From contig DAORIM010000001.1 in NCBI GenBank assembly GCA_035438505.1, forward strand, positions 7,808-71,807: 64,000 bases of DNA, in the 5' to 3' direction. A model generated the notes under the pieces. It was given only the letters and a program-made list of their open reading frames with translations, searched no databases and was not told the origin of the DNA. Below, one piece after another: positions 23,685 through 45,356 of this stretch. Position 1 is the first letter of the stretch. Each line of letters starts with the position of its first letter. The translations under genes and the position numbers were made by a program. Source of the stretch: Minisyncoccota bacterium. Lineage in GTDB: Bacteria; Patescibacteriota; Minisyncoccia; Phycocordibacterales; Phycocordibacteraceae.

Positions 23685-24094
23685 GGGGGTGACCGGCTTT
23701 GACGGTCCTGTACCTTGAGAGACGTGCGACGCGGTGGAAGTGTGCTGACCACCTAAAAACGTACACACAAATACTTGCAAAGAACACTCTTGCAAGCGTG
23801 AAGTCCCCATACTTCGGTACTAAGGACTTTGCGTTCGCTTACGCGTAAAAGCTTTGCGCTTTCGCCTAAGCGACGTTCATATATTCCCGTTTCTTCAGGG
23901 GGATGTATGGGCGGAATCTTCTGAAGAATCGGTATCAAAGCTCTCCTAGGCTTTGGCTTAAAAGACAGGATTAGGCAGGAGCGTTTTCGCTGACGTTCCT
24001 ATTCTCCTGCTGAAACTTCAACGTTAGCTACGCGTCGTAGACTCGCTCTGAAGACGGGATTCGGACCGGAGTTCGACTCTCCGCACCTCCACCT
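23685..24094 (+). ncRNA. ssrA: transfer-messenger RNA (tmRNA, ssrA)
   Basis: 5' end gggggtgaccggctttgacgg pairs with 3' end cacctccacc giving a tRNA-Ala-like acceptor stem with G3:U70; 3' T-arm ccggagttcgactctccg; internal Ala-rich tag-like frame ...gac ttt gcg ttc gct tac gcg taa; directly downstream of smpB. Confidence 0.65.
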
Positions 24095-25753
24095 CATTTC
24101 ATCGGAAGGCACGAAAGTGCCTTTTCGTGTTTTATCTGTTGGCTTTTTCGAGGTTCTAACTTTTTCTAGAGTTGCAGAGAGGTCCCTTCCTTCGGTTAGA
24201 ACTTGAATTGGCTTCTCTAGCTGTAAAGTCAGTATTCCCTGCTCTAAAACATGTTCCGTACCAAGAGCTGCAATTATTGACCTTCGCTTTTGTAAGCCGC
24301 CCTCAAGAAACTCCTCTCTTGCTCTCTCAGCGAAGGTTAGAAGTCGTTCTGCATCATCAATCCAGGTCTTGAACCTCACCTCAGTAGCTTCAATGCGGTT
24401 TTTAAGCGCTCTTTCATCATCTTCAAGGCGACTGCGCTCAGTTTTATATTCATCTGAACCAATGTCTCCAACTAGTCTCATTTCGAAAAGTCTTTGGAGT
24501 CTTTCAGCCACATCCTTTCGTCTCAGTTCATGAGCATAAAGTATGGAGTCCTTGTCAGTAGCCTCCTTTTCATATTCCTTCTTGAGTTCCGCAATTGCCC
24601 ATGCGTGGAATGCAGGGGCAATTTTTATCGATGATAGAAAGTCTATAAATAGTTCCTCAAGCTTCTTCTCTTCAATTGCCTTCTGCTTGCATGTACGGAT
24701 TTTTCCAGTGCATCGGTAATACGAGTACTCATGGATATTGCCATTCTGTTGCCGTTTTATCTTCTTCTCACACGTGATTCGTGCACCACATCCTCCGCAA
24801 CGCATGAGTCCGACATAAGTGTGCATGTGCTTCTGTGGTTTGGCTGATTTGCGATCAATTATCTGCTGAACCTCATCAAACTGCTCCTTGGTTATCATTG
24901 GGGTGTGCAGACCTTTGTACCATTGGGCTATTTCTGGGTACTTTGCGGGGTATAAGTACCATCCATAGTAGAAAGGATTCCTTAATATGTTGTAGAAGCC
25001 GTGGAGTGAAATGGGCCTCGAAGAAGGGTTTCTTCTGGTCTTCTTGGCCTTTAGCCCCCACTCATTAACAGCAAGGTCATATACCTGATGAGGGGTGTAC
25101 TGACGCGAGAGTATTGCATCGAAGATCTTGCTAACGATTGTGAAGTTTGGCTCGTCAACCTCGCACTGTTCCGGACGGTCATCACGGTATTTTGTGTTTC
25201 TGTATCCTATTGGAGCAAGACACGGCCTGAAGCCTCTAAGTGCTGCTCCTCCTTGACCACGCTTAATATTTTCCCTTAGCTTTCGTATGTACTCGGTTGC
25301 CATTGCTGTTTCAATGGTTCCCATTAGCGAATTCTCTTCAGCAGAGTATTCCCGACTTGGTGTCTTAATGAGCTTTATCGCTCCAGCAATACGCAAGTCT
25401 CCGATTTTCCCTCCTTCCTCGAGATTTCTTGCAAGACGATCATAGTCCCAGCATAAAATTGCATTGGCTTTTCCAGCCTTGATGAACTCGACCATCTCCG
25501 TGAATACGGTGCGTTTGCCTGAAGTAGCAGCCGATTTCTCTTCCGAGAATTCCTTCACTACGTTATAGCCTAAATCGAAGGCTATCTTTCTCATCACACG
25601 GAGCTGGTCTTGTGTCGATTCTACAAACTCATCCTTATCTCTAGCTTCAATCGAGCGACGAGCATAGATAACGAACTTAAAGCTCGCTCTTTCATCCTCC
25701 CTCTTTAGTTTTTGGTTGTATCCAACGTCCGACATATTCTTTTTTGAAAGCAA
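23999..25753 (-). CDS. large serine recombinase (site-specific integrase)
   Basis: N-terminal resolvase catalytic domain (FVIYARRSIEARDKDEF...TQDQ), recombinase domain, Cys4 zinc ribbon (CGGCGARITC...YYRC) and coiled coil; C-terminal ~30 codons run antisense through the tmRNA 3' end. Confidence 0.8.
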   Translation of the reverse strand: MLSKKNMSDVGYNQKLKREDERASFKFVIYARRSIEARDKDEFVESTQDQLRVMRKIAFDLGYNVVKEFSEEKSAATSGKRTVFTEMVEFIKAGKANAILCWDYDRLARNLEEGGKIGDLRIAGAIKLIKTPSREYSAEENSLMGTIETAMATEYIRKLRENIKRGQGGAALRGFRPCLAPIGYRNTKYRDDRPEQCEVDEPNFTIVSKIFDAILSRQYTPHQVYDLAVNEWGLKAKKTRRNPSSRPISLHGFYNILRNPFYYGWYLYPAKYPEIAQWYKGLHTPMITKEQFDEVQQIIDRKSAKPQKHMHTYVGLMRCGGCGARITCEKKIKRQQNGNIHEYSYYRCTGKIRTCKQKAIEEKKLEELFIDFLSSIKIAPAFHAWAIAELKKEYEKEATDKDSILYAHELRRKDVAERLQRLFEMRLVGDIGSDEYKTERSRLEDDERALKNRIEATEVRFKTWIDDAERLLTFAERAREEFLEGGLQKRRSIIAALGTEHVLEQGILTLQLEKPIQVLTEGRDLSATLEKVRTSKKPTDKTRKGTFVPSDEMRWRCGESNSGPNPVFRASLRRVANVEVSAGE

Positions 25754-26156: not shown

Positions 26157-26339
26157 TCACATCTTTTCGAGGTCATACCTTAGCTCTTCAAGACGCTCCT
26201 TGGGGTCCCCATAAATGGCTTTGTAGAGGTTCAGTATGAGCAAAGCCTTGCGGTGGAGTTCCTCATCCGTTAGCTCTTCCCCAAATTCTTGGAGATAGAT
26301 TTGGTGGAAGTCGTTGAGACTGTTAGCGTCCAGTGCCAT
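26157..26339 (-). CDS. hypothetical small protein
   Basis: 60-aa acidic ORF, stop overlaps the primase-helicase start (translational coupling). Confidence 0.3.
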   Translation of the reverse strand: MALDANSLNDFHQIYLQEFGEELTDEELHRKALLILNLYKAIYGDPKERLEELRYDLEKM

Positions 26340-28279
26340 TAGAAGATTGGCTCAGTGTCCTCCTGCACGAAGTTCACCTCTTCAAGGTGGTACTTGTTCT
26401 TCTTCCCCTCCTTGTAGACTGAGAGCGAACCTTCCTCGACCATGCTTCGCAGAGCCTCTCCGATGTTGCGGCTACCCACACCAGTCTCCTCACGGACGGC
26501 CTGGATGATTTCCTCATTCGTATAGTCCTGAATTTGGAGCATGGCGGTGATTGCATCGCGAGCCTCTTCCTTCTTAGTAGTTCGCTCATCGATACTCTCG
26601 TAGCGAAGCTCTACCGGACTTCCGATAACATCTGGGTCTTGAGCAAGTACTACACGAAACTTATTCGTGTTCCGTCCACGTCTCGACTTAACGTGTTCAA
26701 CTTCCAGATTCTGTTCGGACGTCGTGCAGTCCTTCTTCTCCACGGTAATGTGTGAATCGAGACGCCCAGAGTATGCTGACGATCCGCGAAGGCTCTGTGC
26801 TCCTCCACTAGAAGCACCCATGCCGCTTTTACGATGGTGGTGAATGAACAACACAGTTGCTCCTGCTTTCGTGAATCTTTGCATGGCCTCAAGTACCTTT
26901 TGCGCTCCCTCGGCAGAGTTCTCATCTTGGGAGTGCATGGCTGCGAATGGGTCAATGATAACCAAAGCAATATTCTGCTCCTTCACAGTCTGGAGCAGAG
27001 CCTCCATGTCTTCCTTCTTGTCTACCTTGAAGCCGTTAAGGCTGTAGAAGTAAATGGGCAGGTCTTCCGAATAGCCCATCACCTCCATGCGGCGGCGTAG
27101 CTCCCACGCTCCCTGTTCTTCGTCCACGATGAGGACACTGCCTTGCTTCGTCACGAAGTTATCGAGGAAGCTTTCTCCAGCAGCCACACACTTGGCCAAG
27201 TGGAGGAGAATCCAACTCTTGCCGCAACCTGGATGGCCGCTCAGCGCAGTAATGCCTTTCTCCGGTATGAGTCCGTACACGAGAAACTCAGGACGTTCTG
27301 ACTCCGGCATGTTGAGAATGGAAGAGACTGACAGAAGCTGTCGTGTTGGAGTCGTATCAGACACTTCCTTATCAACATAGGTAGTCCCCTCACCTCCCTG
27401 GGCATGTTGCTTCTGGGCGATACCGCGAAAGATAGACTTCACCTCACTGTCTGGAAGAGGTGGATCGTTCGCTTTATCGTTCCAAGCAAGTACCGTAGGA
27501 AGTACGAAAGTGTCCCAGTCTTTGGACGGCAAGTGGTGCAGGAGCTTGCCGACATACTTCACGGTAGAGTCGTGCCTGTTCCCCTCCTTCGCTCCTCCAA
27601 CGATAGCCTCCCAATCTGTAGCCTCCTCATACTTGGCTTGTCGCCTCTCTTCGATGTCTGCAAGCCACTTCGGCATTTGCGGCAGGTCTTCCGTGATATC
27701 GAGAGGCTTAATCCATTCGTACGCTTTGCCCGTCTTCGGATGAATTGAAGGAGGGACAACCACATAACCTCCATCAGCCTTCATGTCTCCATGAATGCCG
27801 TATGCTCCGAGCGGACCAGATTTAATCTCGTCCACGAGGTATGGATAGTCGTAGAAGTAGTGCCAGCCTCCTCCGCCCGTCCTGCTAATCGCAGTTGGTG
27901 GCAGTTCGTACTTAGACGGGTCTTCATCCGATTCGAGGTCAAGCACGGCAAGGCCATGAACATATCCCGTAATCATCCCCAAGCCAGTTATTCTGTCTCC
28001 GTAGGTCTTAAACCACTGACGCATCTCATCCGGCGTGGGTGCCTTACCCTGCTGAAAGTCCTTCCATGATGGAATGACTGGGACCTTGCCATTGAGCGGG
28101 ATGACCGTTCTGCAGTCATCTAGGTATGCGAGTGCTGCTTCTAGCAATGTTTCAGAATGGGAGGTCATCTTCTGTCTTGTTATCGGCACCCTCATCCTGC
28201 TTCTCGATGATGCGCTGGATAAGATCTGATACCACTTGAGAGTTTTCCTCTCCCCAGAGAGCAGGTACCAGCACCACAC
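26339..28279 (-). CDS. bifunctional primase-polymerase (Prim-Pol) / RecA-like (RepA/AAA_25) replicative helicase
   Basis: N-terminal Prim-Pol motifs (LDLESDED acidic triad region, GGGWHYFY); central P-loop ATPase SGHPGCGKSWILLHLA with VLIVDEEQG Walker B; C-terminal winged-helix-like tail. Confidence 0.7.
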   Translation of the reverse strand: MWCWYLLSGERKTLKWYQILSSASSRSRMRVPITRQKMTSHSETLLEAALAYLDDCRTVIPLNGKVPVIPSWKDFQQGKAPTPDEMRQWFKTYGDRITGLGMITGYVHGLAVLDLESDEDPSKYELPPTAISRTGGGGWHYFYDYPYLVDEIKSGPLGAYGIHGDMKADGGYVVVPPSIHPKTGKAYEWIKPLDITEDLPQMPKWLADIEERRQAKYEEATDWEAIVGGAKEGNRHDSTVKYVGKLLHHLPSKDWDTFVLPTVLAWNDKANDPPLPDSEVKSIFRGIAQKQHAQGGEGTTYVDKEVSDTTPTRQLLSVSSILNMPESERPEFLVYGLIPEKGITALSGHPGCGKSWILLHLAKCVAAGESFLDNFVTKQGSVLIVDEEQGAWELRRRMEVMGYSEDLPIYFYSLNGFKVDKKEDMEALLQTVKEQNIALVIIDPFAAMHSQDENSAEGAQKVLEAMQRFTKAGATVLFIHHHRKSGMGASSGGAQSLRGSSAYSGRLDSHITVEKKDCTTSEQNLEVEHVKSRRGRNTNKFRVVLAQDPDVIGSPVELRYESIDERTTKKEEARDAITAMLQIQDYTNEEIIQAVREETGVGSRNIGEALRSMVEEGSLSVYKEGKKNKYHLEEVNFVQEDTEPIF

Positions 28280-30029: not shown

Positions 30030-30251
30030 ATGAAGAAGTCCACCCACACTAAAGAATATGCCGTGTTTGTGGAACGACTTAAGAATGCTCGTTTGGAGGC
30101 AGGACTGACTCAAGTACAGGTAGCGAAAAGGATTGGTCGCCCTCAATCCCATATTTCAAATATCGAAAGTGGCCAGCAGAGAGTGGATGTAATTGAACTT
30201 AAGCGATTCGCTAAGTTGTATAGAAAGGCGATGGATTACTTCTTGAAGTAG
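30030..30251 (+). CDS. XRE-family helix-turn-helix transcriptional regulator
   Basis: Cro/C1-type HTH LTQVQVAKRIGRPQSHISNIESGQQRVDVIEL; start set at internal Met (MKKSTH...). Confidence 0.65.
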   Translation: MKKSTHTKEYAVFVERLKNARLEAGLTQVQVAKRIGRPQSHISNIESGQQRVDVIELKRFAKLYRKAMDYFLK

Positions 30252-30253
30252 AA

Positions 30254-30724
30254 CTAACTTTTGATAAATTCCACCAAAAGTGATCGGTACTTGTCTTGTA
30301 ATTCTCTACTTATAAGTGAGTCTGGAATTTCTGTTAATGAGGCTTCTTCGTTGAGTAGGTCGCTACATCTATCAAAATAAAAGGCTTCTGGCGTAGCTAT
30401 AAACATATATGCGAGCTTCCATCGCTCACATATTGCTGCTGCCGTTCTCCTAATCTCATCGCTATCTAGACGAGAACGATACTTTACCTCTACCAGGAAG
30501 ACCTCTTTCGGGTCATGGGATACGAGAGCAAAGTCTGGAGCGTTTCGAATATTATCCAGTAGCTCACGATCATTTATTTGCCTGGTGTATTGCTGGAGTT
30601 CAGATACGACAGACTCATACCCAAAAGGAATGACTGTGTACTTCTCAGCATCGCGAAACATCTGCTCAAAAACCAATTCCGCAATCTTCCCTTTAATTAA
30701 CTGTTTCGAGAAGTCCTTCTGCAT
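30254..30724 (-). CDS. hypothetical protein, possible PD-(D/E)xK nuclease fold
   Basis: Motif arrangement D...DFALVSHDPKEVFLVEVKYR resembles the D-(x)n-E-x-K restriction-endonuclease-like core; downstream partner of the giant helicase operon. Confidence 0.35.
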   Translation of the reverse strand: MQKDFSKQLIKGKIAELVFEQMFRDAEKYTVIPFGYESVVSELQQYTRQINDRELLDNIRNAPDFALVSHDPKEVFLVEVKYRSRLDSDEIRRTAAAICERWKLAYMFIATPEAFYFDRCSDLLNEEASLTEIPDSLISRELQDKYRSLLVEFIKS

Positions 30725-30726
30725 AC

Positions 30727-31611
30727 CTACTTACTCTTGAAGTTATTGATGGCATAGGACAGGATGGCACCAATAATGTCTTGATTCCCTGGTTGTGTGT
30801 ACTTAACCATTTTCTGCTTAGCTTTGTTGATTTCCGAGAAATAAACTCCGTTGCTCAAGACTTGAACATCAAGGAGCTTATTGAGCTTTATGGAGAACGT
30901 CTTTCCGTCTCCCCTAAAGACAACTCTCTTATTCGTTATCACCAATTCACCAGTACCAACGGGTACGAGTCCAGTCTCGCTAACAAGGTGTCCCCTAGAA
31001 CCTCCTACCCTATAGCTAACTCCCTTTGCGATTCTAAGACTCACTCCCTGCGATCCTCCTTCGTAACGGCGCTTGATGACTTTCTCCTCAATAAGCTGCG
31101 CTGGCTCTGCCCAATAAACCTTTTCGTCCTTTTCAGTTATCAGGTTAGGCACGAAAACTTCGGGAATATTTCCCAATTGAATCTCGTTCAATAGACGAAG
31201 TCGAGCTAGCTCCTTCTTATTTTGTGCAATCTCAACATCAGATATTCCCAGATGCTTCTGGATTCGAATCAGCTCTTCTTCCTCTTCCTTCGTAATCTGC
31301 CCGTCTGACTTCGCACTCACAAGTGCGGTCTGGTATGCACCAATCTTTGCGCGCTTTGTTTCTTCGTCAGTTAAGCCCAAATCACTTTGCCTTTTCTTAA
31401 GCTCTTCGACTTCCTTATCATCCAGTACCCCATCGGCAGCCGCCTCAACAAGAGACATTTCAAATTCCTTTTTATTCAAAGACCGCTGCTTTGATTCTTT
31501 ATATTTATCTGCAATCACTTGAAATATTTTCATGGTTTTAATGTTAAGTGTTTCTAGTCCCACGGCAATACGGGAATCGAGAGCATCCATAGAACTTGCC
31601 GAGACGGCCAC
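30727..31611 (-). CDS. hypothetical protein with N-terminal acidic helical repeats and C-terminal beta domain
   Basis: Repeats KEVEELKKRQSDLGLTDEE / KEEEEELIRIQKHLGISDVE; C-terminal GVSYRVGGSRGHLVSETGLVPVGTGELVITNKRVVF... possibly bPH-like; alternative start at 31533 would remove the overlap with the upstream gene. Confidence 0.4.
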   Translation of the reverse strand: MAVSASSMDALDSRIAVGLETLNIKTMKIFQVIADKYKESKQRSLNKKEFEMSLVEAAADGVLDDKEVEELKKRQSDLGLTDEETKRAKIGAYQTALVSAKSDGQITKEEEEELIRIQKHLGISDVEIAQNKKELARLRLLNEIQLGNIPEVFVPNLITEKDEKVYWAEPAQLIEEKVIKRRYEGGSQGVSLRIAKGVSYRVGGSRGHLVSETGLVPVGTGELVITNKRVVFRGDGKTFSIKLNKLLDVQVLSNGVYFSEINKAKQKMVKYTQPGNQDIIGAILSYAINNFKSK

Positions 31612-34600
31612 TTCTTAGAATCATTCTGGAACTGCAGCGAGGACAAACCTTATCGCTTAAAACAGGCTCAGGCTTGTTAGCTCTCTCAATAATTCTTTTA
31701 CCCTTACATTGCCTACAGAACCTCCCATAGCCAGTGATAAGGGAAGAATCTCTGAAATCCTGGTCCTCTCTCACCTCCTTACACTTCGGACAGACTTTCA
31801 TCTTTCCGTTCTGCAATCCCTGAACAGTTTCGTGAATAGTATGCAGGAGAGGATTCATTCCCGACTCCTCTTTGACTAACCTGCCAAGTCGTTGATTCAG
31901 AGTCTCAATCGGGTTCTCGCCTACATTAAAGCGATTGATGCGGAGGAATTTGTATCCATAGCTCTCAAGAACTTTCTGACGATATACATCTTCGTCCGAA
32001 TAATAATTCTGATAGTTAAACTCATTGATGACATCAACATCCTTGAAATGCTCCTTGAAGCCGTCATATTCGATAACGATCTTATGTTCTCTCCCCTGTT
32101 CGCTTTGGTACGACACCAAGAAATCAACTTTATATGCTGGATGAGAATACGTTGGGTCCAATTGCTTCAAGTACTTCCCAATTTCAAATTGAGGCACGAA
32201 TTCAATTCGTTCTTTGTTGTCATTCCAGAAACTCGTTTGGTAGAACCAGTTTAAGACTTCGGCTTCCTTACCTGACTTCTGGTCTGTTTCTTCAATACCC
32301 TTCTCCTTCTTAGCCTCTTCAAGAAGGTTAAAGTAATGCCTTAGAGCATCTCCTATGGAGCCATTGAATTTATCAAGAGGCTTACTAAGTACAAAGTGTA
32401 CGCATTCTTTTCCACGACTAAAGCCCACATTCAATCGCTGAGCTTTAATCTGACCGTCCTCTTCCACATCAACATTATTGAGGTCTTTTATGAAAATGCC
32501 CCAGAGTCTATCACTATGCTCCGAAGCTACCATTGGGTAGTAGATAATGTCCCTTTCCTCACCCTGACAGGTATCAAAAGTCATTATCTTCAAATCCAGC
32601 TTCTCGAAGTAGAAATCACGTTCTGGAAGCTTATTTATCATCTCGACCAATAGTTTTTGCTGGTTGGTATGTGGGGTAATGATTCCAACGCTCATTTCTT
32701 GCCCCTCTTCCTTCATCCGTTCCAATTCGGAAATGATGAACTCTACTTCTGCCTTGTTGGAGTTTGGGTAGACTTCGTCCTCTGGGGCGGCCTCTATGTA
32801 GGAAAACTTGATTACGTCGTCAATATTCTTGCCGCGTATCTTCATTACCTGGAGACTCTCTTGATAGAAGTACTTGTTCGAGTACGAGATTATTTCCTTG
32901 TAGCCACGGAAGTGTTTCCGGAGCTGGGTCCTGTAATTGCTTATGAACTCTACAAACTCAAGAATAGATGTCTTGATATTGAACTTTTCTAGCTTAACGA
33001 GCTTTGTACCCTCCGTTGAAACGTTCTCCTTAAATGAACGCTCAAGCATATTAAGGTACTCACGATTCGTATCTGAGCGAGCTTGAGCTGCCTTGATGTT
33101 GCTGAACTGCTTCTTATCTCCAAGGATAAGTACCTTCTTTGCTCGAAGAAGTGCCGGAAATGCCTGAGCAATGCTTACCTGCGAGGCCTCATCTATGATG
33201 ACCAGGTCAAACATTTCCTCTTCAAGAGGAATATATTCTGCATAGTCTCTGATACCAGCGAGGATACACGGGAAGGCCTTCTGAAGTTTGCGGAACTGCT
33301 CTTTAGGAAACTTCTGCTTATTCTTAATAACAGCCCTTAATGCCTCAGCATCGGTTCGATTGTGCTCATAGAAATCAATAAGCCTTCCATCCAGAAGATA
33401 TGCAACCTGCGTGATTACCAATTCTTCAATATTCTTCTTCCTCAATGCGTAGTTAAGGTCAGGGATCTCTGAGAATTCTTTTGTGAGCTTCTGCCTGAGG
33501 CTTAAATATCTCAATTGCTTATCAAACAAGAATTCGTCAGAAGAAATAATCAGGTTGCTAAAGAGGCTGGAGAATTCAGCAAAATCCAGACCTGCTTTCT
33601 CAGCTGTTCTCGTGTACTTCTGGGTGAAATCTCTCAGATAAGTAGTCTCCTCTCCGGCTTTTACAAACTCTTTAAGATATTCAGTTCCGCCTTCTTCTTT
33701 CAAAAGGCGGTGAACTATTCCCACGTAATCTAATCCCGTGGAAAGTTTTGTGTTCACTTCCTCTCCAAGGGAATGTATGTAATCGAAAATGGCATATGCG
33801 TCTTTCAGTCTCTGAATTTCCTGATGAGCCATTGCTACCGGGGTGCGGAATGCTTGCCTGAAACGTAGGTCTACTTCTCCAACTTTCTTTTTCTCGAACA
33901 AAAAGCCTACGAGAAAAGCCTTAAGGCTCTCATACTCTTTAATGAAGTCAGCCAACTTCTCTATTTCTTTCTTTGAGAAGGAATCAAAAATGGCTATTGA
34001 ATCAAGTTTCTCTTTGTATATATCCTTTAGCTTCTCGATACTCTCAGAGGCGAGAGAGAGGAAGCGAATCACATTCTCATAATCCTCAACTGTACCGATA
34101 TCTTTGGAATTGACTCCAATTATTTCGAACAGCTCCTTCCCTACTTCCGAGTCGTAAGCTCCCTTAAGGAGGTTGAGCGAAGACCGTGCTTCACTAATTT
34201 CAATAGGAGCCTCTTCAAATGGAAGGGCTTCGTTAATATCAAAGGTAAGTTCTTCTGTATTTATAGAACTCTCTAGGGCGACGAGTTCTTTTACTTCTTG
34301 AATATCAATGTCTTCACAGGCCACTACTTCAGCCTCCAGGTCTTCTCTCAGTGAATTTATAGACTTCTCGATATTCCCCACGATCACCTCATGATTCTTT
34401 CTTACCGCGTGATGGTGGGTCTTAATATCCTGGTAAGTACCTTGAGCAAGAATCTTAGCGTAAGTGTTTCCTGTCTTACCGAGTCGAAGAATTGGGTTCT
34501 GGAAGTTTTCAGCATTCCTGACCTTATTAATCGTCTGGGTAATATTATTTTCAACGACATCCAGAGCTTCTTTCTTATCAGACAAAACGAGTACGGATTG

Positions 34601-36106
34601 CTCTCGAAGAACGGCATCGAAGATAATGGCCGTAATAGTGTGGCTCTTACCAGTACCAGGAGGTCCCTCAATGACTAGATACCGGCATGAGTCTTTCCTT
34701 ATTGCAGAGAGAATTTGAAGCTGTTCTGCATTAAGTGGGATAGGGCTTGAAACTACAAGCCTCTCGGTTATGTCAGTATCATCCCATTCTTTCTCTACCT
34801 CTGGATTACAGGGTTCAGGGTTGTTATAGAGGAAGTCTCCAAGCAGCTTGTTGAAAGATTCGGATAGCAATCCCCCCTCCTCGCCAAGCTGTTTAAGAAT
34901 GTCCTCGTAGTCATTTACAAGAGCCTCATCAGACTTATCGAAGAGCGCTATATAGCAGGAGTTGGTAATCCGTACAGTTGGCCCTTTCGCCACCTGGGCT
35001 TTTTCCTCAACAAATGAGACATTACCCTTCGCTTCAAAGAAGTTGATTATCTCCGTTAATATGACGGAAAGAACTTCTTGAAGGTCAGTCGTGTGCTGAG
35101 CCAGATAAATGATTCGCTCTGTAATTGTTTGAAGGTTCCCCTTTTTCCCACTAAGAACATTGTTCTCCTGGACTATATATTCCAGAGCCTTCTTGTTTAT
35201 GTATATTTGTGAATCAAACTCTAGCGAAAGCACCTCATCCTGTCTCGTTATACTTATCGGCACGTAAAATATTGGGTACTTTGCGTTACCAAAAGCAATA
35301 TCGCCAAAATAAAGGTAGAAGTCCTGCTTTTCTAAAATGCTCCTATTGCGAGACATCTCAAATATCTCCGCAAACAAATCGGCAACCTGTAGACTCTCAA
35401 AAAAGGAATTGAGTGTGCTCTTAACTTCTGAGAGTGCGAAAACGCTCTTTAGTTCTTTCTCAAGATTTACTTTCTCCTTTGCAATAAAAAGATTAAGGGT
35501 CTCAGAAACCCTGCTCTCCACTAGACGCAAGAGCACCTCGGAAAGCTCCTCTTCAACCAGAAAAATATTCCCTTCATCCCCCAATGTGAGGTTCTGTAGT
35601 GGCTTATCAAGCTTTTCAATAAACGGGTCTACCAATTCGACACGGATTGTTGCTCGTGCTGAATCAATTGCCGTATTTAAGGCAATATCGTATTCCGTTT
35701 CGTAAAGTGTACCGAGCCTCTCAATATCCTCCGCGATATTCTTTATTATTTTGTTTATCTGAGCAGCACTTATTTTTTCGACCTGAAGCTTGACCAAGTC
35801 GAGTAAATTCTTAGGTAGCTTTGTTTGATAAACACCCTTCTCTATCTTACTGAGTACATCTCTATCAAAATTCTTATTAACTAAAGACCAGACTAGCTTA
35901 TTGAAAGTTTCGTACTTTTGAAGATTCAAACCGACAAGTAAGTTGTCATTGTTCCTAAATTTAATAGCCCTACGCGGCAATTTCTTCTTGTGAAAATCGG
36001 ACTCCAAGAAGTCCATGAAGTACTTTGCTACATCCTTAAAGAAAAGGAGTCCGTTCTCGGCCGATGGAGTAGGAGTTGTTTGCATGTCTTGAGTTAATAG
36101 TACCAA
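31544..36106 (-). CDS. giant SF1 (Upf1/DNA2-like) helicase with N-terminal DUF4011-like region, C-terminal restriction-endonuclease-like (DUF559/Vsr-like) domain and topoisomerase-type C4 zinc ribbons
   Basis: 1520 aa; Walker A GPPGTGKSHT, LIIDEASQV (AAA_11), TFDTCQGEERDIIYY (AAA_12); C-terminal HKIVIEYDGFKEHF nuclease-like core; CPKCKEV...CRQCKG and CPRCSSRMILRSGRLGKFYGCSRFPYCRGT zinc ribbons; AT-rich codon usage. Confidence 0.75.
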   Translation of the reverse strand: MVLLTQDMQTTPTPSAENGLLFFKDVAKYFMDFLESDFHKKKLPRRAIKFRNNDNLLVGLNLQKYETFNKLVWSLVNKNFDRDVLSKIEKGVYQTKLPKNLLDLVKLQVEKISAAQINKIIKNIAEDIERLGTLYETEYDIALNTAIDSARATIRVELVDPFIEKLDKPLQNLTLGDEGNIFLVEEELSEVLLRLVESRVSETLNLFIAKEKVNLEKELKSVFALSEVKSTLNSFFESLQVADLFAEIFEMSRNRSILEKQDFYLYFGDIAFGNAKYPIFYVPISITRQDEVLSLEFDSQIYINKKALEYIVQENNVLSGKKGNLQTITERIIYLAQHTTDLQEVLSVILTEIINFFEAKGNVSFVEEKAQVAKGPTVRITNSCYIALFDKSDEALVNDYEDILKQLGEEGGLLSESFNKLLGDFLYNNPEPCNPEVEKEWDDTDITERLVVSSPIPLNAEQLQILSAIRKDSCRYLVIEGPPGTGKSHTITAIIFDAVLREQSVLVLSDKKEALDVVENNITQTINKVRNAENFQNPILRLGKTGNTYAKILAQGTYQDIKTHHHAVRKNHEVIVGNIEKSINSLREDLEAEVVACEDIDIQEVKELVALESSINTEELTFDINEALPFEEAPIEISEARSSLNLLKGAYDSEVGKELFEIIGVNSKDIGTVEDYENVIRFLSLASESIEKLKDIYKEKLDSIAIFDSFSKKEIEKLADFIKEYESLKAFLVGFLFEKKKVGEVDLRFRQAFRTPVAMAHQEIQRLKDAYAIFDYIHSLGEEVNTKLSTGLDYVGIVHRLLKEEGGTEYLKEFVKAGEETTYLRDFTQKYTRTAEKAGLDFAEFSSLFSNLIISSDEFLFDKQLRYLSLRQKLTKEFSEIPDLNYALRKKNIEELVITQVAYLLDGRLIDFYEHNRTDAEALRAVIKNKQKFPKEQFRKLQKAFPCILAGIRDYAEYIPLEEEMFDLVIIDEASQVSIAQAFPALLRAKKVLILGDKKQFSNIKAAQARSDTNREYLNMLERSFKENVSTEGTKLVKLEKFNIKTSILEFVEFISNYRTQLRKHFRGYKEIISYSNKYFYQESLQVMKIRGKNIDDVIKFSYIEAAPEDEVYPNSNKAEVEFIISELERMKEEGQEMSVGIITPHTNQQKLLVEMINKLPERDFYFEKLDLKIMTFDTCQGEERDIIYYPMVASEHSDRLWGIFIKDLNNVDVEEDGQIKAQRLNVGFSRGKECVHFVLSKPLDKFNGSIGDALRHYFNLLEEAKKEKGIEETDQKSGKEAEVLNWFYQTSFWNDNKERIEFVPQFEIGKYLKQLDPTYSHPAYKVDFLVSYQSEQGREHKIVIEYDGFKEHFKDVDVINEFNYQNYYSDEDVYRQKVLESYGYKFLRINRFNVGENPIETLNQRLGRLVKEESGMNPLLHTIHETVQGLQNGKMKVCPKCKEVREDQDFRDSSLITGYGRFCRQCKGKRIIERANKPEPVLSDKVCPRCSSRMILRSGRLGKFYGCSRFPYCRGTRNT

Positions 36107-36222: not shown

Positions 36223-36741
36223 TCAATTCTCTGGCTTCCAGGTACCTAAAACAATGTAGTAGAAGAGGCGACGTCCGAATTCAAAAAGAAGAGCTACTGC
36301 AATTAAGTAAGCGACACTATAGAGCAACACTTCAATCCAACTACCCCTTGTTAGGGCAATATCTTCAATCTCTACTGAGGGCAGAGTGTCATTGTTATAT
36401 TTCGCGTCCAGTATTTCTCTTGGTGAACTTCTTACCTCTTCCTCCCCGCACGCTATCCGTAGTGTATATCGCTGAGCATTGCTAAGGGATTCAAGGCCAA
36501 GACTCGAGCTGTACCCTGAGAGATCGATTCGCTTATCTCTAGAGGCTTGGAAAGTAGAATGGTTCCCTCCTGTGCAAATAATCCTATGGTCCACGACGAG
36601 AGAGTCAGGCTCATTCTCGTCATAGATAGCTATGAGCATTACCAGAGTCATGATTCCAAAAAGACCGATATAACCGACTTTCAAAAGTCGATACCACCAC
36701 TTTGAATTCAGGTCTGCTAATGAATGAGGCTGTTTGTTCAT
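36223..36741 (-). CDS. hypothetical membrane protein
   Basis: Two TM helices (N- and C-terminal) flanking a soluble domain; 172 aa. Confidence 0.35.
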   Translation of the reverse strand: MNKQPHSLADLNSKWWYRLLKVGYIGLFGIMTLVMLIAIYDENEPDSLVVDHRIICTGGNHSTFQASRDKRIDLSGYSSSLGLESLSNAQRYTLRIACGEEEVRSSPREILDAKYNNDTLPSVEIEDIALTRGSWIEVLLYSVAYLIAVALLFEFGRRLFYYIVLGTWKPEN

Positions 36742-36879: not shown

Positions 36880-37020
36880 CAGCTATCCACCAAATGTAAA
36901 AAATGTGAGGCTCTGCTTTCCAGTAATGAGGTTCTAACCTCGTGAAGCCACCTCCACCGACATAGAACTATATGGCGACATATAGAAGCATAGGAGAACC
37001 GCCTCATGGGCGGTTTTCTG
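36880..37020. repeat. island repeat unit A (GAGGTTCTAACC core + downstream hairpin)
   Basis: atccaccaaatgtaaaaaatgtgagg...gaggttctaacctcgtgaagccacctccaccgacatagaactatatggcgacatatagaa then hairpin gaaccgcctcatgggcggttttc; near-identical 3' half at 37705-37770, homologous 5' half at 41176-41235. Confidence 0.7.
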
Positions 37021-37046: not shown

Positions 37047-37607
37047 CTACTCAAAGCGATGGAATGTGAACCATTTCATGGTACCTACCGGAATTCCATA
37101 CACCTCTTCAATCACAGTTCTGGGACTTCGGAGCTCAACCGAATTCCAATCCAGCCCGAGTGAGTTTGCTGTTGTCTTTAGCGCATCTTCGCTGGGACCC
37201 TCCAATTCGACATATGTTGGTATCTTCGGCCATGTATCGATATCCACCACCACGTCACCCATATGAAACGTGTACCGCTTCTTCTCCTGATGTCGGTACG
37301 CAACATAGCCAAGGCGTTCTAAGAGTGCCTCAGCGGCATCAGCGTTATCTACCTCGAACTCAATCTCTTCCGTACCTTCAGCGGTTATTTCTGTCCGGTG
37401 CTTATAGGTGAGCTTCGTTTTCCCATCACACGTACGCAGTCGGAGAATTTTATGCGCACCGTCGCGCCAGGTCATCGCATTGTCATAAATTATGCGTTCT
37501 TGAAGGAGGTATTCTCCCTTGTCCTCAGCGCCTAACTCCTCGAGTTTCTTGATAAGTTCCTCCTTATCGATCTCGAGAAACCTGACCTCGATTTCTCTGT
37601 AATTCAT
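37047..37607 (-). CDS. CYTH-domain protein (CyaB/thiamine-triphosphatase-like)
   Basis: N-terminal YREIEVRF (ExExK) motif and further acidic residues typical of CYTH triphosphate tunnel enzymes; 186 aa. Confidence 0.7.
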   Translation of the reverse strand: MNYREIEVRFLEIDKEELIKKLEELGAEDKGEYLLQERIIYDNAMTWRDGAHKILRLRTCDGKTKLTYKHRTEITAEGTEEIEFEVDNADAAEALLERLGYVAYRHQEKKRYTFHMGDVVVDIDTWPKIPTYVELEGPSEDALKTTANSLGLDWNSVELRSPRTVIEEVYGIPVGTMKWFTFHRFE

Positions 37608-37649: not shown

Positions 37650-37795
37650 CCTACCACCCATCCACGATCCGTAAGAAGTTAGGCGAGCTGTCCTGAATCA
37701 GACAGGTTCTAACCTCGTGAAGCCACTTCCACCGACATAGAACTATATGGCGATATATAGAACAGTAGAAACCGCCTTTGAGGCGGTTTCTACCT
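37650..37795. repeat. island repeat unit B
   Basis: ...caggttctaacctcgtgaagccacttccaccgacatagaactatatggcgatatatagaa then hairpin gaaaccgcctttgaggcggtttc. Confidence 0.7.
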
Positions 37796-38218: not shown

Positions 38219-38881
38219 CTACATAGTGAGGTAGATCTCTCCTGCTAGTGTTTTGATTCTGTACGATTCCATTTTCGGTCCAGGCATGCCGGGCGTTCCA
38301 GATGGCATGCCAGGGAGTGCGATTCCTGATATCTCGGGTTTCTCGGTAGTGAGTGTAGCGATGACTTCGAGAGGAACGTGTCCCTCTACCACATACCCAT
38401 CGATGATAGTCGTGTGGCAGCTTTCAAGCTCTGGTCCTATGCCGTGCGTTGCTTTAATTGAAGCCAGTTCTTCGTCAGATACATTATTAACTACGACATC
38501 TGCCGACTGTGCTTCCAGTTCCGCAATGAAGCCGCCACAGCAGCTACACCCTGGCGACTTGTATACCTCCATACGCTTGCCGGCGAGTTCAGGATGATTG
38601 TCAGCGACAGTCTTTCGTTCAGGCTGCTGTGCGAAGAGCGCCAGCGACCCACTCACAAGAACTGCAGCAACAAGCCCCGCCATGATTGGTCCCCTTAATT
38701 TCTTTTGCCTGCCGTACAGGAACCAGCCGATGGCAACACCAACTACTGCCCCTATAAGGAGCATCATGGCTAATGAAAGTAGGTCATTCCCCACTGCTTC
38801 CGGATGGTCTCCGGTATGTGCAAGCGTGATGAACGGGAGCGCGTACGAGACTGCGCCTCCCAGTAGTACTTTTGCTTTCAT
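38219..38881 (-). CDS. DUF411-family metal-binding protein (CopG-like copper-resistance associated)
   Basis: N-terminal TM anchor; KSPGCSCCGGF...SCHTTIIDGYVVEGHVP signature of DUF411; start set at MKAKVLLGG. Confidence 0.7.
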   Translation of the reverse strand: MKAKVLLGGAVSYALPFITLAHTGDHPEAVGNDLLSLAMMLLIGAVVGVAIGWFLYGRQKKLRGPIMAGLVAAVLVSGSLALFAQQPERKTVADNHPELAGKRMEVYKSPGCSCCGGFIAELEAQSADVVVNNVSDEELASIKATHGIGPELESCHTTIIDGYVVEGHVPLEVIATLTTEKPEISGIALPGMPSGTPGMPGPKMESYRIKTLAGEIYLTM

Positions 38882-38882
38882 G

Positions 38883-39434
38883 CTACTGAGGCCAGACTGA
38901 AAGCCAGTCGCGCATCGTCTCAATCTCGCGCGTCTGCGAGGAGACAATATTCTTAGCAAGCTCCTTCATCTCAGTGCGTGAGGTACCGGACTCAAGCATC
39001 TGCGCCATCATCACCGCCATCTCGTGATGGACGATCATTTGCGCGATGAACTCGCGATCGAAGTCAGATGCAGCTTGGAGGGCATCTACATCCCCTTCCA
39101 TTCCCTGCATGTGCATACCACCATGGCCCATGCTTTCGGTCGGTGCCCTATCGAACCATTCCTGGTACCACTGCTGCATCTTGCCGATCTCATCCGTCTG
39201 CGCGTCGATGATCTCTTGTGAGAGCGTACGCACGCGCTCATCCTTTGAGCGTTCAAGCGCGAGCTCTGCCATCTCGATCGCCCCTTCATGGTGCGGAATC
39301 ATCTGCTCGATAAAGTGAGCGTCTACATTGCCCATACCCATGTTATTACCCGGCATGCGTGGTGCGAATGTGTAGCCGAGGACGAGTCCCGCGATTAGTG
39401 CGACTCCCGCTATCAGTACTGTTTTATTCTCCAT
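38883..39434 (-). CDS. DUF305-family protein (copper-resistance associated, periplasmic)
   Basis: Signal/anchor then duplicated HH motifs (FIEQMIPHHEGAI..., FIAQMIVHHEMAV) and Met/His-rich linker MGHGGMHMQGMEG. Confidence 0.7.
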   Translation of the reverse strand: MENKTVLIAGVALIAGLVLGYTFAPRMPGNNMGMGNVDAHFIEQMIPHHEGAIEMAELALERSKDERVRTLSQEIIDAQTDEIGKMQQWYQEWFDRAPTESMGHGGMHMQGMEGDVDALQAASDFDREFIAQMIVHHEMAVMMAQMLESGTSRTEMKELAKNIVSSQTREIETMRDWLSVWPQ

Positions 39435-39469
39435 AGTTGATACTTATCTAATAAGCAAACTAAGGAATG

Positions 39470-39859
39470 CTATGGAGCCTTCGGGTTCAAAATGCCTTGC
39501 GAGAATAGGAGGGTATACAGAGGAACGGGTACTGGTTGAGCCGAGGGAAAAGCCCGATGTCTTTTCCTCGGCGGATGAAGAAGCAAAAGTCCAGACACGA
39601 GCACCGGCACGACAAGCAAGAGCGTGATGGAGTCGAGTGTAGGCTGTGCCTGCGAAAAGCTGCCGATCAAAAGGTCCATGTCGCTGTACGACATGGTGCA
39701 AAGCGACATACCAGCTACCGACACTTCGCATCCGGAGCCATGGTCTCCGTGTACAAGGGGAAAAGCGAAGGAAAAGGTGCCGATATACAGCAGTGCTCCG
39801 AGAAGGAGGAGGCTCGTAATACGTCTTAGCCCTAGTCCCGACATGCGCATAGTGTACAC
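39470..39859 (-). CDS. hypothetical small membrane protein
   Basis: Two hydrophobic segments, HGDHGSG and Cys/Met residues; sits between DUF4396 and DUF305 genes; overlaps an alternative longer ORF in another frame, so coding status uncertain. Confidence 0.3.
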   Translation of the reverse strand: MYTMRMSGLGLRRITSLLLLGALLYIGTFSFAFPLVHGDHGSGCEVSVAGMSLCTMSYSDMDLLIGSFSQAQPTLDSITLLLVVPVLVSGLLLLHPPRKRHRAFPSAQPVPVPLYTLLFSQGILNPKAP

Positions 39860-40318
39860 CTAGTGCCCATGGTGAGCATGCACAACCGCATGCCCCTTCC
39901 CTCTGGCAATGAGCCAACGGTTGACCGGAAACGCGAACATCCCCGCGACGACTAGCGCAAGCACCATGCTCCCCCAGAACAACGGGCTCGTAAGTCCAGC
40001 ATCCATAGCGCCTGGAATAAGGAGCATGACCGCATTGTCGACAACCTCCATGATTGCTATAGAGACTGTGTCTGCAGCGAACGCTAATCCAATGGCGGCA
40101 CCGAGTGTCATCCCATGCCGTAGGAGCGGAACCATCGTGAAGAGATACCCGAAGAAGAAGGCGAGTACCACAGCGAGCAGGATAGTTTGCCCTGTTCCCC
40201 ACCCAAGTGCCGTACCGATAACAAGACCGAGTACCTCGCCAGTCGCGCAGCCAGTTAGACAGTGGAGTGTGGCACTAAAGGCTACTTTGTTGAGGCTCTG
40301 CCCATGATTGTGATCCAT
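39860..40318 (-). CDS. DUF4396-family membrane protein (metal-homeostasis associated)
   Basis: HCLTGCATGE motif at first TM helix, four TM segments, His-rich C-terminus HAVVHAHHGH. Confidence 0.6.
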   Translation of the reverse strand: MDHNHGQSLNKVAFSATLHCLTGCATGEVLGLVIGTALGWGTGQTILLAVVLAFFFGYLFTMVPLLRHGMTLGAAIGLAFAADTVSIAIMEVVDNAVMLLIPGAMDAGLTSPLFWGSMVLALVVAGMFAFPVNRWLIARGKGHAVVHAHHGH

Positions 40319-40319
40319 A

Positions 40320-40586
40320 CTAAGCGCGCTTTAGTGAGTAAACCTTCAAGATCTCCTTCGTTGCCTTACCTTCCTGTCCCTTTTTCATCTGCCCGATGAC
40401 GCAGGTACCAAGATGGCTTTCCAGGAGCTGGTCTTCTACGCCTGACAGCGCACGCTTCACGGCCGAAGTCTGCGTGATGATATCAACGCAGTAAATATCC
40501 TCTTCAATCATTTTCTTTAAACCTCGTACTTGTCCCTCTATGCGATTTAGTCGGTTTAATACCTGCTTCTTTGCTTCTGTCTTCAT
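40320..40586 (-). CDS. csoR: CsoR/RcnR-family metal-sensing transcriptional repressor
   Basis: 88 aa; LNRLNRIEGQVRGL helix, conserved Cys (YCVD) and His (ESHL, GTC) ligand positions typical of copper-sensing CsoR. Confidence 0.8.
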   Translation of the reverse strand: MKTEAKKQVLNRLNRIEGQVRGLKKMIEEDIYCVDIITQTSAVKRALSGVEDQLLESHLGTCVIGQMKKGQEGKATKEILKVYSLKRA

Positions 40587-40593
40587 GCACTCA

Positions 40594-40614
40594 ATATACC
40601 CCCATGGGGTATAT
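40594..40614. promoter_or_regulatory. CsoR-type operator (GC-tract inverted repeat) in divergent promoter region
   Basis: atataccccCATggggtatat: arms ATATACCCC / GGGGTATAT match the known CsoR operator style (TACCC...GGGTA); located between csoR (-) and the DUF305 membrane gene (+). Confidence 0.6.
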
Positions 40615-40630
40615 TGTCAAAGTCTACACA

Positions 40631-45083: not shown

Positions 45084-45335
45084 TTATACGCGGCGCACCA
45101 TCTTCACGATGGCAAGAAGCACAACGGCACCAAGAACGGCAACAAGGAAGCTGTAGAGGTTAAAGCCTTCAACGCCCTGCTGTCCGAAGAGGCTCATGAT
45201 CCATCCGCCAAGGACGGCACCCACGATACCGACAATAATGTCGAGAAGAAGGCCCTGCTGGCCATTCGTCTTCATGATCATTGACGCGATCCAACCTGCT
45301 AGAGCACCAAATACAATCCAGATAAGAAATTCCAT
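45084..45335 (-). CDS. GlsB/YeaQ/YmgE-family stress-response membrane protein
   Basis: 83 aa, three glycine-zipper TM helices (IVFGALAGWIASMIM..., IIVGIVGAVLGGWIMSLF). Confidence 0.65.
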   Translation of the reverse strand: MEFLIWIVFGALAGWIASMIMKTNGQQGLLLDIIVGIVGAVLGGWIMSLFGQQGVEGFNLYSFLVAVLGAVVLLAIVKMVRRV

Positions 45336-45356
45336 AGTAGTTTTTACGATTAGCTC

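What the first reader, a model, noticed from the sequence alone, without database searches (positions are those of the whole stretch)
30030..36106. Candidate defence module: 1520-aa DUF4011-like/SF1 helicase/REase-like nuclease/double zinc-ribbon protein with two small downstream partners and an XRE regulator
The giant protein has three parts. The ~470-aa N-terminal region contains a Y..YFGDIAFGNAKYPIFYVPI segment. Upf1/DNA2-like AAA_11/AAA_12 helicase motifs follow. The C-terminus has an HKIVIEYDGFKEHF nuclease-like core followed by two topoisomerase-type C4 zinc ribbons. Single-protein helicase + Vsr/DUF559-nuclease architectures of this kind have been linked to anti-phage defence (Hhe-like). 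The extra zinc ribbons are not part of the described architecture as far as I can recall. Two co-oriented, apparently co-transcribed genes are also not part of it: a 294-aa protein with an acidic-repeat N-terminus and beta C-domain, and a 156-aa protein with a possible PD-(D/E)xK core. The three genes sit in the most AT-rich part of the island next to an XRE regulator. They may form an undescribed three-component helicase-nuclease system.
Basis: partly seen in the sequence, partly recalled or inferred. Interest (0 to 1): 0.8.

Follow-up and report, generated by a model that had tools for sequence, protein, structure and literature searches.

The report
Helicase-nuclease gene beside two unrelated cargo genes
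The three genes exist and look defence-related, but in other genomes they almost never occur together, so this is a stand-alone Hhe-like helicase-nuclease next to two independent cargo genes on a mobile island, not a new three-part immune system.

Summary
The genes are real. On the minus strand lie A (31544-36106, 1520 aa, probably 1513), B (30727-31533, 268 aa rather than 294) and C (30254-30724, 156 aa). A convergent XRE gene lies at 30030-30251. All sit in the AT-rich part of a ~21-kb island with a large serine recombinase, inserted at the tmRNA gene of a Candidatus Paceibacterota genome.

A combines an Upf1-like SF1 helicase, an MTES_1575/Vsr-type nuclease and two zinc ribbons. Its 455-aa N-terminal module is specific to its own family. 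The catalytic residues are invariant. A fails the Hhe, ProA and PDC-S37 models.

The three-gene system is not supported:
- 79 genomic loci carry A homologues. None has B, and two have C.
- 80 loci carry B homologues. None has A or C.
- C homologues sit in other serine-recombinase elements without A or B.
- The closest relatives (A 96% identical) carry A-B-XRE without C. C is a clean 495-nt indel.

B is a TerB-like helical domain plus a PH-like domain. C is a small PD-(D/E)xK nuclease. XRE lies at the 3' end of the operon, facing the island's replication module.

Verdict: a new variant of a known kind (Hhe-like single-gene helicase-nuclease) beside independent cargo genes. Interest is modest.

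The parts
31544..36106 (-). Gene A: giant helicase-nuclease. It is 1520 aa from the TTG at 36106, and probably 1513 aa from the ATG at 36085.
   Evidence: ORF. More than 100 full-length homologues at 58-96% identity. Pfam, PADLOC and NCBIfam results. The alignment A3 is conserved along the whole length.
34742..36106 (-). A residues 1-455: N-terminal module specific to the family, with no Pfam family. It includes the FYLYFGDIAFGNAKYPIFYVPI beta-hairpin segment.
32387..34735 (-). A residues 458-1240: Upf1-like SF1B helicase core, split by a variable helical insertion of about 340 aa (residues ~600-940).
   Evidence: AAA_11 and AAA_12 hits. Invariant GPPGTGKSHT (481-490), DEAS (972-975), QGEERD and NVGFSR motifs. 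The best matches among solved structures are SMUBP-2, UPF1, Sen1 and DNA2.
31892..32239 (-). A residues ~1290-1405: MTES_1575/DUF559 (Vsr-like) restriction-endonuclease-fold nuclease.
   Evidence: Pfam MTES_1575 at 26.9 bits, E 5e-6, below the cut-off. hhalign gives 98.7% probability against the MTES_1575 domain of a DUF4011 protein. D1328, E1346, D1348, H1353, K1378 and R1389 are invariant.
31697..31801 (-). A residues ~1436-1470: first C4 zinc ribbon (CPKC...CRQC).
   Evidence: C1439, C1442, C1464 and C1467 are invariant in 40 homologues. No named Pfam type.
31550..31651 (-). A residues 1486-1519: second C4 zinc ribbon, of the topoisomerase I type.
   Evidence: Pfam Zn_ribbon_Top1 at 43 bits. 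Matches Topo I chains in the PDB. A few family members carry a WYL domain in its place.
30727..31533 (-). Gene B: 268-aa protein with a TerB-like helical N-half and a PH-like (GRAM-type) C-half. No catalytic motif was seen.
30254..30724 (-). Gene C: 156-aa stand-alone PD-(D/E)xK nuclease.
   Evidence: 252 homologues. E16, P63-D64 and E79-x-K81 are invariant. Pfam Tn7_TnsA-like_N scores 24 bits against a cut-off of 26.5. The gene is a clean 495-nt indel relative to L080.
30030..30251 (+). XRE-family HTH regulator (73 aa). It is convergent with C and divergent from the island's leftward genes.
   Evidence: HTH_3 at 48 bits. 84% nt identity to the XRE of L080, where it converges directly on B.
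36223..36741 (-). 172-aa predicted membrane protein upstream of A. It belongs to the block shared at 85% nt identity with L080.
   Evidence: found only in L080, in none of the 79 A loci. No Pfam hit.
23685..24093 (+). tmRNA gene, the integration site of the island.
   Evidence: ARAGORN. GC drops from 0.55 to 0.45 at this point.
23999..25753 (-). Large serine recombinase of the island. The listed ORF runs into the 3' end of the tmRNA gene.
   Evidence: Resolvase, Recombinase and Zn_ribbon_recom domains. Homologues occur in 21 of 79 A loci, 12 of 80 B loci and 2 of 5 C loci.
26339..28279 (-). Prim-Pol + PriCT_1 + AAA_25 replication protein of the island.
   Evidence: Pfam. Homologues occur in 5 A loci.

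Best explanation
The region is a cargo stretch of a ~21-kb integrative element. The element encodes a large serine recombinase and a Prim-Pol/AAA_25 replication protein, and it is inserted at the tmRNA gene of a Candidatus Paceibacterota genome.

Gene A is the functional unit. It belongs to a large, strongly conserved and widely transferred family of single-protein helicase-nucleases. The family works like Hhe but is distinct from it.

Inferred mechanism for A:
- The family-specific N-terminal module keeps the enzyme in check or senses invading nucleic acid.
- The Upf1-like SF1B motor translocates 5'->3' on single-stranded nucleic acid.
- The two C-terminal zinc ribbons hold the strand.
- The MTES_1575/Vsr-type nuclease cuts it.

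Genes B and C are separate cargo genes that happen to be packed behind A in this lineage. B has a TerB-like helical domain and a PH-like domain, and it may be a membrane- or ligand-binding accessory. C is a small PD-(D/E)xK nuclease. They are probably co-transcribed with A, but they are not obligate partners. XRE is most likely a regulator of the element.

Shown: the anatomy, the conservation, the lack of co-occurrence, and the gain or loss of C. Inferred: the defence role and each mechanistic step.
For: A is self-contained.
- 79 loci in many bacterial phyla and in archaea carry full-length homologues at 41-68% identity. The homologues listed (58-96% identical) are about 1500-1530 aa long.
- B is in 0 of 79 loci and C in 2 of 79, by tblastn and by profile HMM.
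- No neighbour family is conserved. The commonest is a serine recombinase (18-21 loci).
- The gene immediately downstream belongs to more than 40 unrelated families.

B and C are independent.
- In 80 B loci there is no A and no C. 66 of these loci have at least 600 nt upstream and 54 have at least 500 nt downstream.
- B usually follows Ltp-type lipoprotein or membrane genes in elements with XRE and a serine recombinase.
- C homologues sit in other elements that carry a serine recombinase, three of five also with a Rep protein.
- C is a precise indel: L080, L172 and L173 have A-B-XRE with 28 nt where the window has 495 nt.

A resembles known defence proteins.
- hhalign gives 98.7% probability to the helicase-nuclease half of a DUF4011 protein.
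- PADLOC gives partial hits to PDC-S37, MkoC, MkoA and Hhe.
- The catalytic residues are invariant.
- Neighbours of A homologues include OLD/GajA/AriA-like and LmuB-like ATPases, DUF2130, DUF2779, DUF2726 and SocA_Panacea.
- Hhe is a validated single-gene system whose nuclease mutant is inactive (bioRxiv 10.1101/2022.06.16.496414).
Against: - A, B and C are packed with gaps of 10 nt and 2 nt, and no terminator-like site lies in either intergenic gap. They are probably one transcript here.
- The block of the 172-aa gene, A, B and XRE is shared at ~85% nt identity between elements. Their recombinases are only ~66% identical and their replication modules differ: Prim-Pol here, Phage_rep_O in the relatives. 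A and B therefore travel together in this lineage.
- A TerB protein plus a helicase has a precedent in Shango (PMC10250203).
- No member of the A family has been tested, and the hosts are uncultured.
- The defence role rests on homology of the C-terminal two thirds and on neighbourhood.
- Many B loci are short contigs, so their negative evidence is weaker than the numbers suggest.
Confidence: 0.65

Rival explanations
1. A and B, with C as a recent addition, form a genuine lineage-specific multi-component system. B, the TerB-PH protein, senses a membrane or ligand cue and licenses the helicase-nuclease. C adds a second nuclease.
For: - The genes are spaced like an operon.
- The A-B-XRE module is conserved at ~85% nt identity in at least three further assemblies with different backbones.
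- There is a TerB + helicase precedent in Shango.
- In L057 a C homologue lies two genes downstream of A, co-oriented.
Against: - A-B adjacency is seen only in near-identical relatives (A 96% identical).
- B is in 0 of 79 other A loci and A is in 0 of 80 other B loci.
- C is absent from the closest relatives.
- A already carries its own effector nuclease.
- No PADLOC Shango model matched any of the three proteins.
Confidence: 0.1
2. A serves the mobile element itself and not host defence. It might act as a replication, processing or transfer helicase-nuclease, or as a weapon against competing elements.
For: - A homologues are repeatedly found near large serine recombinases (21 of 79), tyrosine recombinases, ParB/methylase genes and Prim-Pol genes.
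- Small excisionase-like or XRE HTH genes sit directly upstream in about 10 loci.
- Homology between loci ends at the gene borders, as expected for a cassette.
Against: - The backbones that carry A differ (Prim-Pol versus Phage_rep_O), and each has its own replication protein.
- Most loci show no recombinase within 8 kb.
- The nearest characterised relatives by sequence are defence proteins.
- Neighbours include known defence ATPases.
Confidence: 0.15
3. The three genes are unrelated passengers with no defence function: a housekeeping-type repair helicase, a stress protein and a resolvase.
For: - The same island carries a copper/metal cassette, a CYTH gene and a DUF3800 gene, so its cargo is mixed.
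- None of the three families has been tested experimentally.
Against: - All three are patchily distributed and sit on mobile elements. They are not conserved chromosomal genes.
- A is up to 58-69% identical across phyla and domains, which implies recent horizontal transfer.
Confidence: 0.1

Closest known systems
Hhe (Gao et al. 2020 single-gene system; DUF4011 + helicase + Vsr-type nuclease; NCBIfam NF042953, PADLOC PDLC02194)
   Same: - It is a single large protein with an Upf1-like AAA_11/AAA_12 SF1 helicase followed by an MTES_1575/Vsr-type nuclease.
- The helicase-nuclease half is homologous (hhalign 98.7%).
- In Hhe the nuclease is essential for defence.
   Different: - There is no detectable DUF4011 domain. 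A family-specific 455-aa N-terminal module stands in its place.
- A has two C-terminal zinc ribbons.
- A is about 1520 aa, against about 1800-1900 aa for Hhe.
- It scores 114 bits against a cut-off of 2000.
- It scores 70 bits on the PADLOC Hhe model, where true DUF4011 proteins score 200-694.
PADLOC candidate PDC-S37 (untested single-gene candidate, DUF4011-type)
   Same: It is the best PADLOC hit (E 2.5e-43). The profile length is similar (1550), and the second helicase half sits at a collinear position.
   Different: Only residues ~942-1237 align. A scores 146 bits, against 440-1040 bits for real members.
Mokosh type II MkoC / type I MkoA helicases
   Same: The PADLOC MkoC profile aligns from residue 278 to 1234, covering the region before the helicase and the helicase itself.
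   Different: Mokosh pairs its helicase with a PLD-type nuclease (from my own knowledge of the family). A has no PLD domain and carries a Vsr-like REase instead. The score is only 134 bits.
NCBIfam anti-phage protein ProA (NF058533)
   Same: It is the best NCBIfam hit (138 bits, residues 628-1191).
   Different: The score is far below the equivalog cut-off of 1500. I found no paper describing ProA.
Shango (TerB-like protein + ATPase + DEAD/DEAH helicase; PMC10250203)
   Same: A TerB-like protein is encoded next to a helicase on a defence island.
   Different: There is no separate ATPase. The helicase is SF1 Upf1-like with its own nuclease, not DEAD/DEAH. No PADLOC Shango model matched. B and A do not co-occur outside one lineage.

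Membership tests
   B is in 0 of 79 A loci and C in 2 of 79. A and C are each in 0 of 80 B loci. None of the 8 C loci has A or B.
Hhe | N-terminal DUF4011 domain (PF13195). | tested here: not met
   No Pfam hit at E<=1 on residues 1-460. hhalign to the N-termini of DUF4011 proteins is not significant. There is only a weak collinear BLASTP match (E 0.06).
Hhe | SF1 AAA_11/AAA_12 helicase core with intact motifs. | tested here: met
   Pfam gives 64.9 and 62.7 bits. The Walker A, DEAS, motif V and motif VI residues are invariant.
Hhe | C-terminal Vsr/MTES_1575-type nuclease with conserved catalytic residues. | tested here: met
   MTES_1575 scores 26.9 bits, below the cut-off. hhalign gives 98.7% over A residues 938-1405, including the nuclease. 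The D1328, E1346-x-D1348 and K1378 residues are invariant.
Hhe | Reaches the curated equivalog score (NF042953, 2000 bits). | tested here: not met
   114 bits. The PADLOC Hhe model gives 70 bits, against 200-694 for true DUF4011 proteins.
PDC-S37 (PADLOC) | Full-length match to the profile. | tested here: not met
   146 bits, and only residues ~942-1237 align. Control proteins score 440 and 1040 bits.
ProA (NF058533) | Reaches the curated equivalog score (1500 bits). | tested here: not met
   138 bits.
Mokosh type II (MkoC) | Helicase fused to a PLD-type nuclease. | tested here: not met
   Only the helicase region aligns (134 bits). No PLD domain appears in Pfam.
Shango | Three genes for a TerB-like protein, an ATPase and a DEAD/DEAH helicase. 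| tested here: not met
   No ATPase gene is present. The helicase is SF1. No Sng model appears in the PADLOC output. The system definition is from PMC10250203.
TerB domain (PF05099), for B | Match above the Pfam gathering score. | tested here: inconclusive
   25.0 bits against a cut-off of 24.4, but the match covers only residues 100-130 and no single stretch passes. Several homologues carry a precomputed PF05099 hit. The PDB TerB entry 2ou3 matches at E 0.78.
PH-like fold, for the C-half of B | Seven-stranded beta-sandwich capped by a C-terminal helix. | tested here: met
PD-(D/E)xK nuclease, for C | Conserved E ... PD ... (D/E)xK catalytic signature. | tested here: met
   E16, P63-D64 and E79-V-K81 are invariant in 32 sequences. 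Tn7_TnsA-like_N scores 24 bits, just under the cut-off. Activity was not tested.
Integrative element with a large serine recombinase | A Resolvase + Recombinase + Zn_ribbon_recom recombinase at the edge of a compositionally distinct insert next to a tRNA or tmRNA gene. | tested here: met
   The host flank beyond ~45085 matches the flank of L080. No flanking att direct repeat was found, so the exact ends are not defined.

The most novel reading that the evidence does not exclude
The A family would be a distinct single-gene immune helicase-nuclease. It has about 500 clusters at 50% identity, occurs in Patescibacteria, many other bacterial phyla and DPANN or methanogen-related archaea, and is not recognised by the PADLOC or NCBIfam models used here. 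Its sensor module would be new. In this Paceibacterota lineage it would also have recruited the TerB-PH protein B as a real accessory sensor. That would make a two-part system, with C as a later third part.
Probability: 0.1. Interest if true: 0.6.

Novelty: new variant of a known kind. Interest (0 to 1): 0.3.

Why it matters
The result removes a tempting but unsupported 'new three-gene defence system'.

What remains is a sizeable, uncharacterised family of Hhe-like helicase-nucleases.
- The family has its own N-terminal module and zinc ribbons.
- It is unusually well conserved across phyla, and between bacteria and archaea.
- It rides on serine-recombinase elements in Patescibacteria, organisms whose immune repertoire is poorly known.
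- The PADLOC and NCBIfam defence models used here do not capture it, so a dedicated model would improve annotation of CPR and DPANN genomes.

The B and C families are likewise recurrent cargo of these small elements, and their function is unknown.

Tried and rejected
- The single-sequence scan of metagenome contigs with B found nothing, because the patterns were too specific. It was repeated with an alignment.
- Scans of viral contigs with C found nothing, either as a single sequence or as an alignment. B and A each gave only 2 loci.
- The afdb50 fold library was unavailable.
- Sequence searches of the PDB with the B and C profiles gave nothing significant.
- The DUF4011 assignment for the N-terminus was tested with Pfam, hhalign and BLASTP, and was not demonstrated.
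- The idea that A sits on a ~5-kb circular replicon came from the many ~5-kb contigs. No contig showed a terminal overlap.
- No att direct repeats flank the island. The only repeat found is the internal 59-nt pair around the CYTH gene.
- Literature searches for 'ProA' as an anti-phage protein found nothing relevant.
- The sigma-70 promoter scan found fewer sites than in shuffled sequence, so it is uninformative for this organism.
Full report
**What is there.**

The minus strand of window 30254-36106 carries three tightly packed ORFs.
- A lies at 31544-36106. It is 1520 aa from a TTG. The 96%-identical homologue P0001 is 1513 aa, so the ATG at 36085 is the likely start.
- B is listed as 294 aa from a GTG. 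All homologues begin at the ATG at 31533, which gives 268 aa, 10 nt after the stop of A.
- C lies at 30254-30724 and is 156 aa. It starts 2 nt after the stop of B.
- A 73-aa XRE/HTH_3 gene (30030-30251, plus strand) converges on C.

B and C are identical to proteins of a 'Candidatus Paceibacterota bacterium' MAG.

The genes lie in the most AT-rich stretch (GC 0.39-0.44) of an island spanning roughly 24094-45000. The island has GC 0.46, against 0.55 for the flanks.
- It starts at a tmRNA gene.
- It encodes a large serine recombinase and a Prim-Pol/PriCT/AAA_25 replication protein.
- It also carries a CYTH gene, a copper/metal cassette and a DUF3800 gene.
- The right-hand host flank is fixed by homology of window 45085-46423 to the flank of a related element, L080.

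**Protein A.**

Pfam finds AAA_11 (residues 458-597), AAA_12 (1057-1238), a sub-threshold MTES_1575 REase (1316-1404) and Zn_ribbon_Top1 (1486-1519).

An alignment of 40 homologues is conserved end to end.
- The helicase motifs are invariant: GPPGTGKSHT, DEAS, QGEERD and NVGFSR.
- The nuclease residues are invariant: D1328, E1346-x-D1348, H1353, K1378 and R1389.
- The first C4 ribbon is invariant (C1439, C1442, C1464, C1467).
- The second C4 ribbon is nearly invariant (C1488, C1491, C1508, C1514).

Profile-profile comparison with a bona fide DUF4011 protein (Qipengyuania plasmid; DUF4011 112 bits, MTES_1575 105 bits) aligns A residues 938-1405 to its helicase-nuclease half at 98.7% probability.

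The N-terminal 455 residues have no Pfam family. DUF4011 does not hit even at E<=1. hhalign to the N-termini of DUF4011 proteins is not significant. The only trace is a weak collinear BLASTP match around KYPIFYVPI (E 0.06), together with the PADLOC MkoC alignment that starts at residue 278.

A profile of this module finds 535 clusters among 1.84 billion representative proteins. In the best 150 listed, it is always at the N-terminus, either of ~1300-1700-aa proteins or of shorter sequences taken to be fragments.

Its AlphaFold model is weak (pLDDT 62) and has no fold match.

Among solved structures, only Upf1-like helicase cores (SMUBP-2, UPF1, Sen1, DNA2) and the Topo I zinc ribbon match.

**Is A a member of a named defence family? 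No.**
- NCBIfam gives ProA 138 bits against a cut-off of 1500, and Hhe 114 bits against 2000.
- PADLOC gives partial hits only: PDC-S37 146 bits, MkoC 134, MkoA 110 and Hhe 70.
- As a calibration, true DUF4011 proteins score 440-1040 bits on PDC-S37 and 200-694 on Hhe. Other members of the A family score 136-143 and 66-75.

A therefore works like Hhe, which is a validated single-gene system whose Vsr-domain mutant E1731A is inactive (bioRxiv 10.1101/2022.06.16.496414). It belongs to a separate family.

**Do B and C belong to it? No.**

A scan of one genome per species returned 79 loci with A homologues at 41-68% identity. They come from Patescibacteria, Bacteroidota, Acidobacteriota, Actinomycetota, Chloroflexota, Nitrospirota, Pseudomonadota, Elusimicrobiota and archaeal MAGs.
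- B is found in none of them.
- C is found in two. In L057 it follows a DUF2779 gene downstream of A. In L069 it is on the opposite strand. Profile HMMs give the same result.
- No neighbour family is conserved. The commonest is a large serine recombinase (18-21 loci), then tyrosine recombinases, ParB/methylase genes and Prim-Pol genes.
- Of 58 loci with enough downstream sequence, 34 have a co-oriented ORF within 100 nt. These ORFs fall into more than 40 unrelated families.
- The downstream families include DUF2130, DUF2779, OLD/GajA/AriA-like and LmuB-like ATPases, DUF2726 and SocA_Panacea.

The converse searches agree.
- 80 metagenomic loci with B homologues contain neither A nor C. 66 of them have at least 600 nt upstream and 54 have at least 500 nt downstream.
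- B typically follows an Ltp-type lipoprotein or another membrane protein, in small elements with an XRE gene and a serine recombinase, next to tRNA-like sequence.
- C homologues on long contigs sit in other elements that carry a serine recombinase, three of five also with a Rep protein. Their neighbours include SduA_C, GIY-YIG, SLFN-type helicase or DNA methylase genes, and never A or B.

**The closest relatives.**

L080, L172 and L173 (A 96% identical) carry the 172-aa gene, A, B and a convergent XRE. They lack C.
- L080 aligns to window 36752-30723 at 85% nt identity, and again to 30227-29965.
- Between those two blocks L080 has 28 nt where the window has the 495 nt that hold C.
- C is therefore an individually gained or lost cassette.
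- These relatives have a Phage_rep_O backbone, not Prim-Pol, and their recombinase is only ~66% identical. The A-B-XRE block has thus moved between backbones.

This is the only evidence linking A and B, and it is confined to one narrow lineage.

**B and C themselves.**
- C has the invariant E16, P63-D64 and E79-x-K81 signature of PD-(D/E)xK nucleases, and a near-threshold TnsA-N hit.

**XRE.**

XRE lies at the 3' end of the A-B-C transcription unit and is convergent with it. It faces the leftward genes of the island divergently (153-aa gene, 263-aa gene, Prim-Pol, recombinase). Its position fits a regulator of the element better than a regulator of A-B-C. In about 10 other A loci a small excisionase/MerR-like or XRE gene lies directly upstream of A.

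**Other collections.**
- The A family is almost absent from phage genomes. GenBank phages give only helicase-core hits, and IMG/VR gives 2 loci.
- On plasmids the nearest relative is a 35%-identical Priestia megaterium protein with no conserved partner.

**Conclusion.**

The best reading is a stand-alone, Hhe-like helicase-nuclease of a distinct and widespread family. It sits beside two independent cargo genes on a tmRNA-integrated serine-recombinase element.

The defence role of A and its mechanism are inferred, not shown. In the proposed mechanism the N-terminal module senses or restrains, the SF1B motor translocates, the zinc ribbons grip the strand, and the Vsr-type nuclease cuts.

Noticed in passing
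window 36929-36987 and 37704-37762: A 59-nt direct repeat (97% identical) brackets the CYTH gene (37047-37607). L080 3805-3889 matches both copies. It may be an att-like scar of a nested insertion.
   Followed up: partly
window 38219-41116: A copper/metal-type cassette sits inside the island, at higher GC (0.51-0.55) than the defence stretch. It holds DUF411, two DUF305 genes, DUF4396 and a CsoR-type metal-sensitive repressor.
   Followed up: partly
window 23685-25753: The island is inserted at the tmRNA gene, and the listed recombinase ORF runs into the 3' end of that gene. The related elements L172 and L173 sit next to smpB. No flanking att repeat was found.
   Followed up: partly
A-family homologues (L016, L019, L040): Many homologues lie on ~5-kb contigs that hold almost only this gene. 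One has 451x coverage. No contig has a terminal overlap. Between loci, downstream DNA homology mostly stops at the stop codon, and upstream homology reaches only some 100-500 nt in subgroups. The gene behaves as a single-gene cassette shared among many genomes.
   Followed up: partly
L003, L036, L044, L061, L002, L005, L031, L037, L008, L071 (directly upstream of A homologues): Small HTH genes of 61-128 aa sit immediately upstream of A homologues in about 10 loci. They are excisionase/MerR-like or XRE-type, and may be regulators or recombination directionality factors.
   Followed up: no
L084-L160 (B loci), e.g. L107 6332-6994: In 14 loci, B homologues directly follow a lipoprotein of the Ltp family (PF07553, 'Host cell surface-exposed lipoprotein'; confirmed by Pfam on one representative). 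In 13 more they follow another membrane protein. The elements are small and carry XRE and a serine recombinase.
   Followed up: partly
P0069, P0070, P0113: A few A-family members carry a WYL domain (PF13280) at the C-terminus, where the others have the Topo-type zinc ribbon.
   Followed up: no
L027, L041, L042, L048; P0119: A-family genes 50-58% identical to the window's occur in MAGs labelled Woesearchaeota, Aenigmarchaeota and Methanoperedens. This is either cross-domain transfer or binning error.
   Followed up: no
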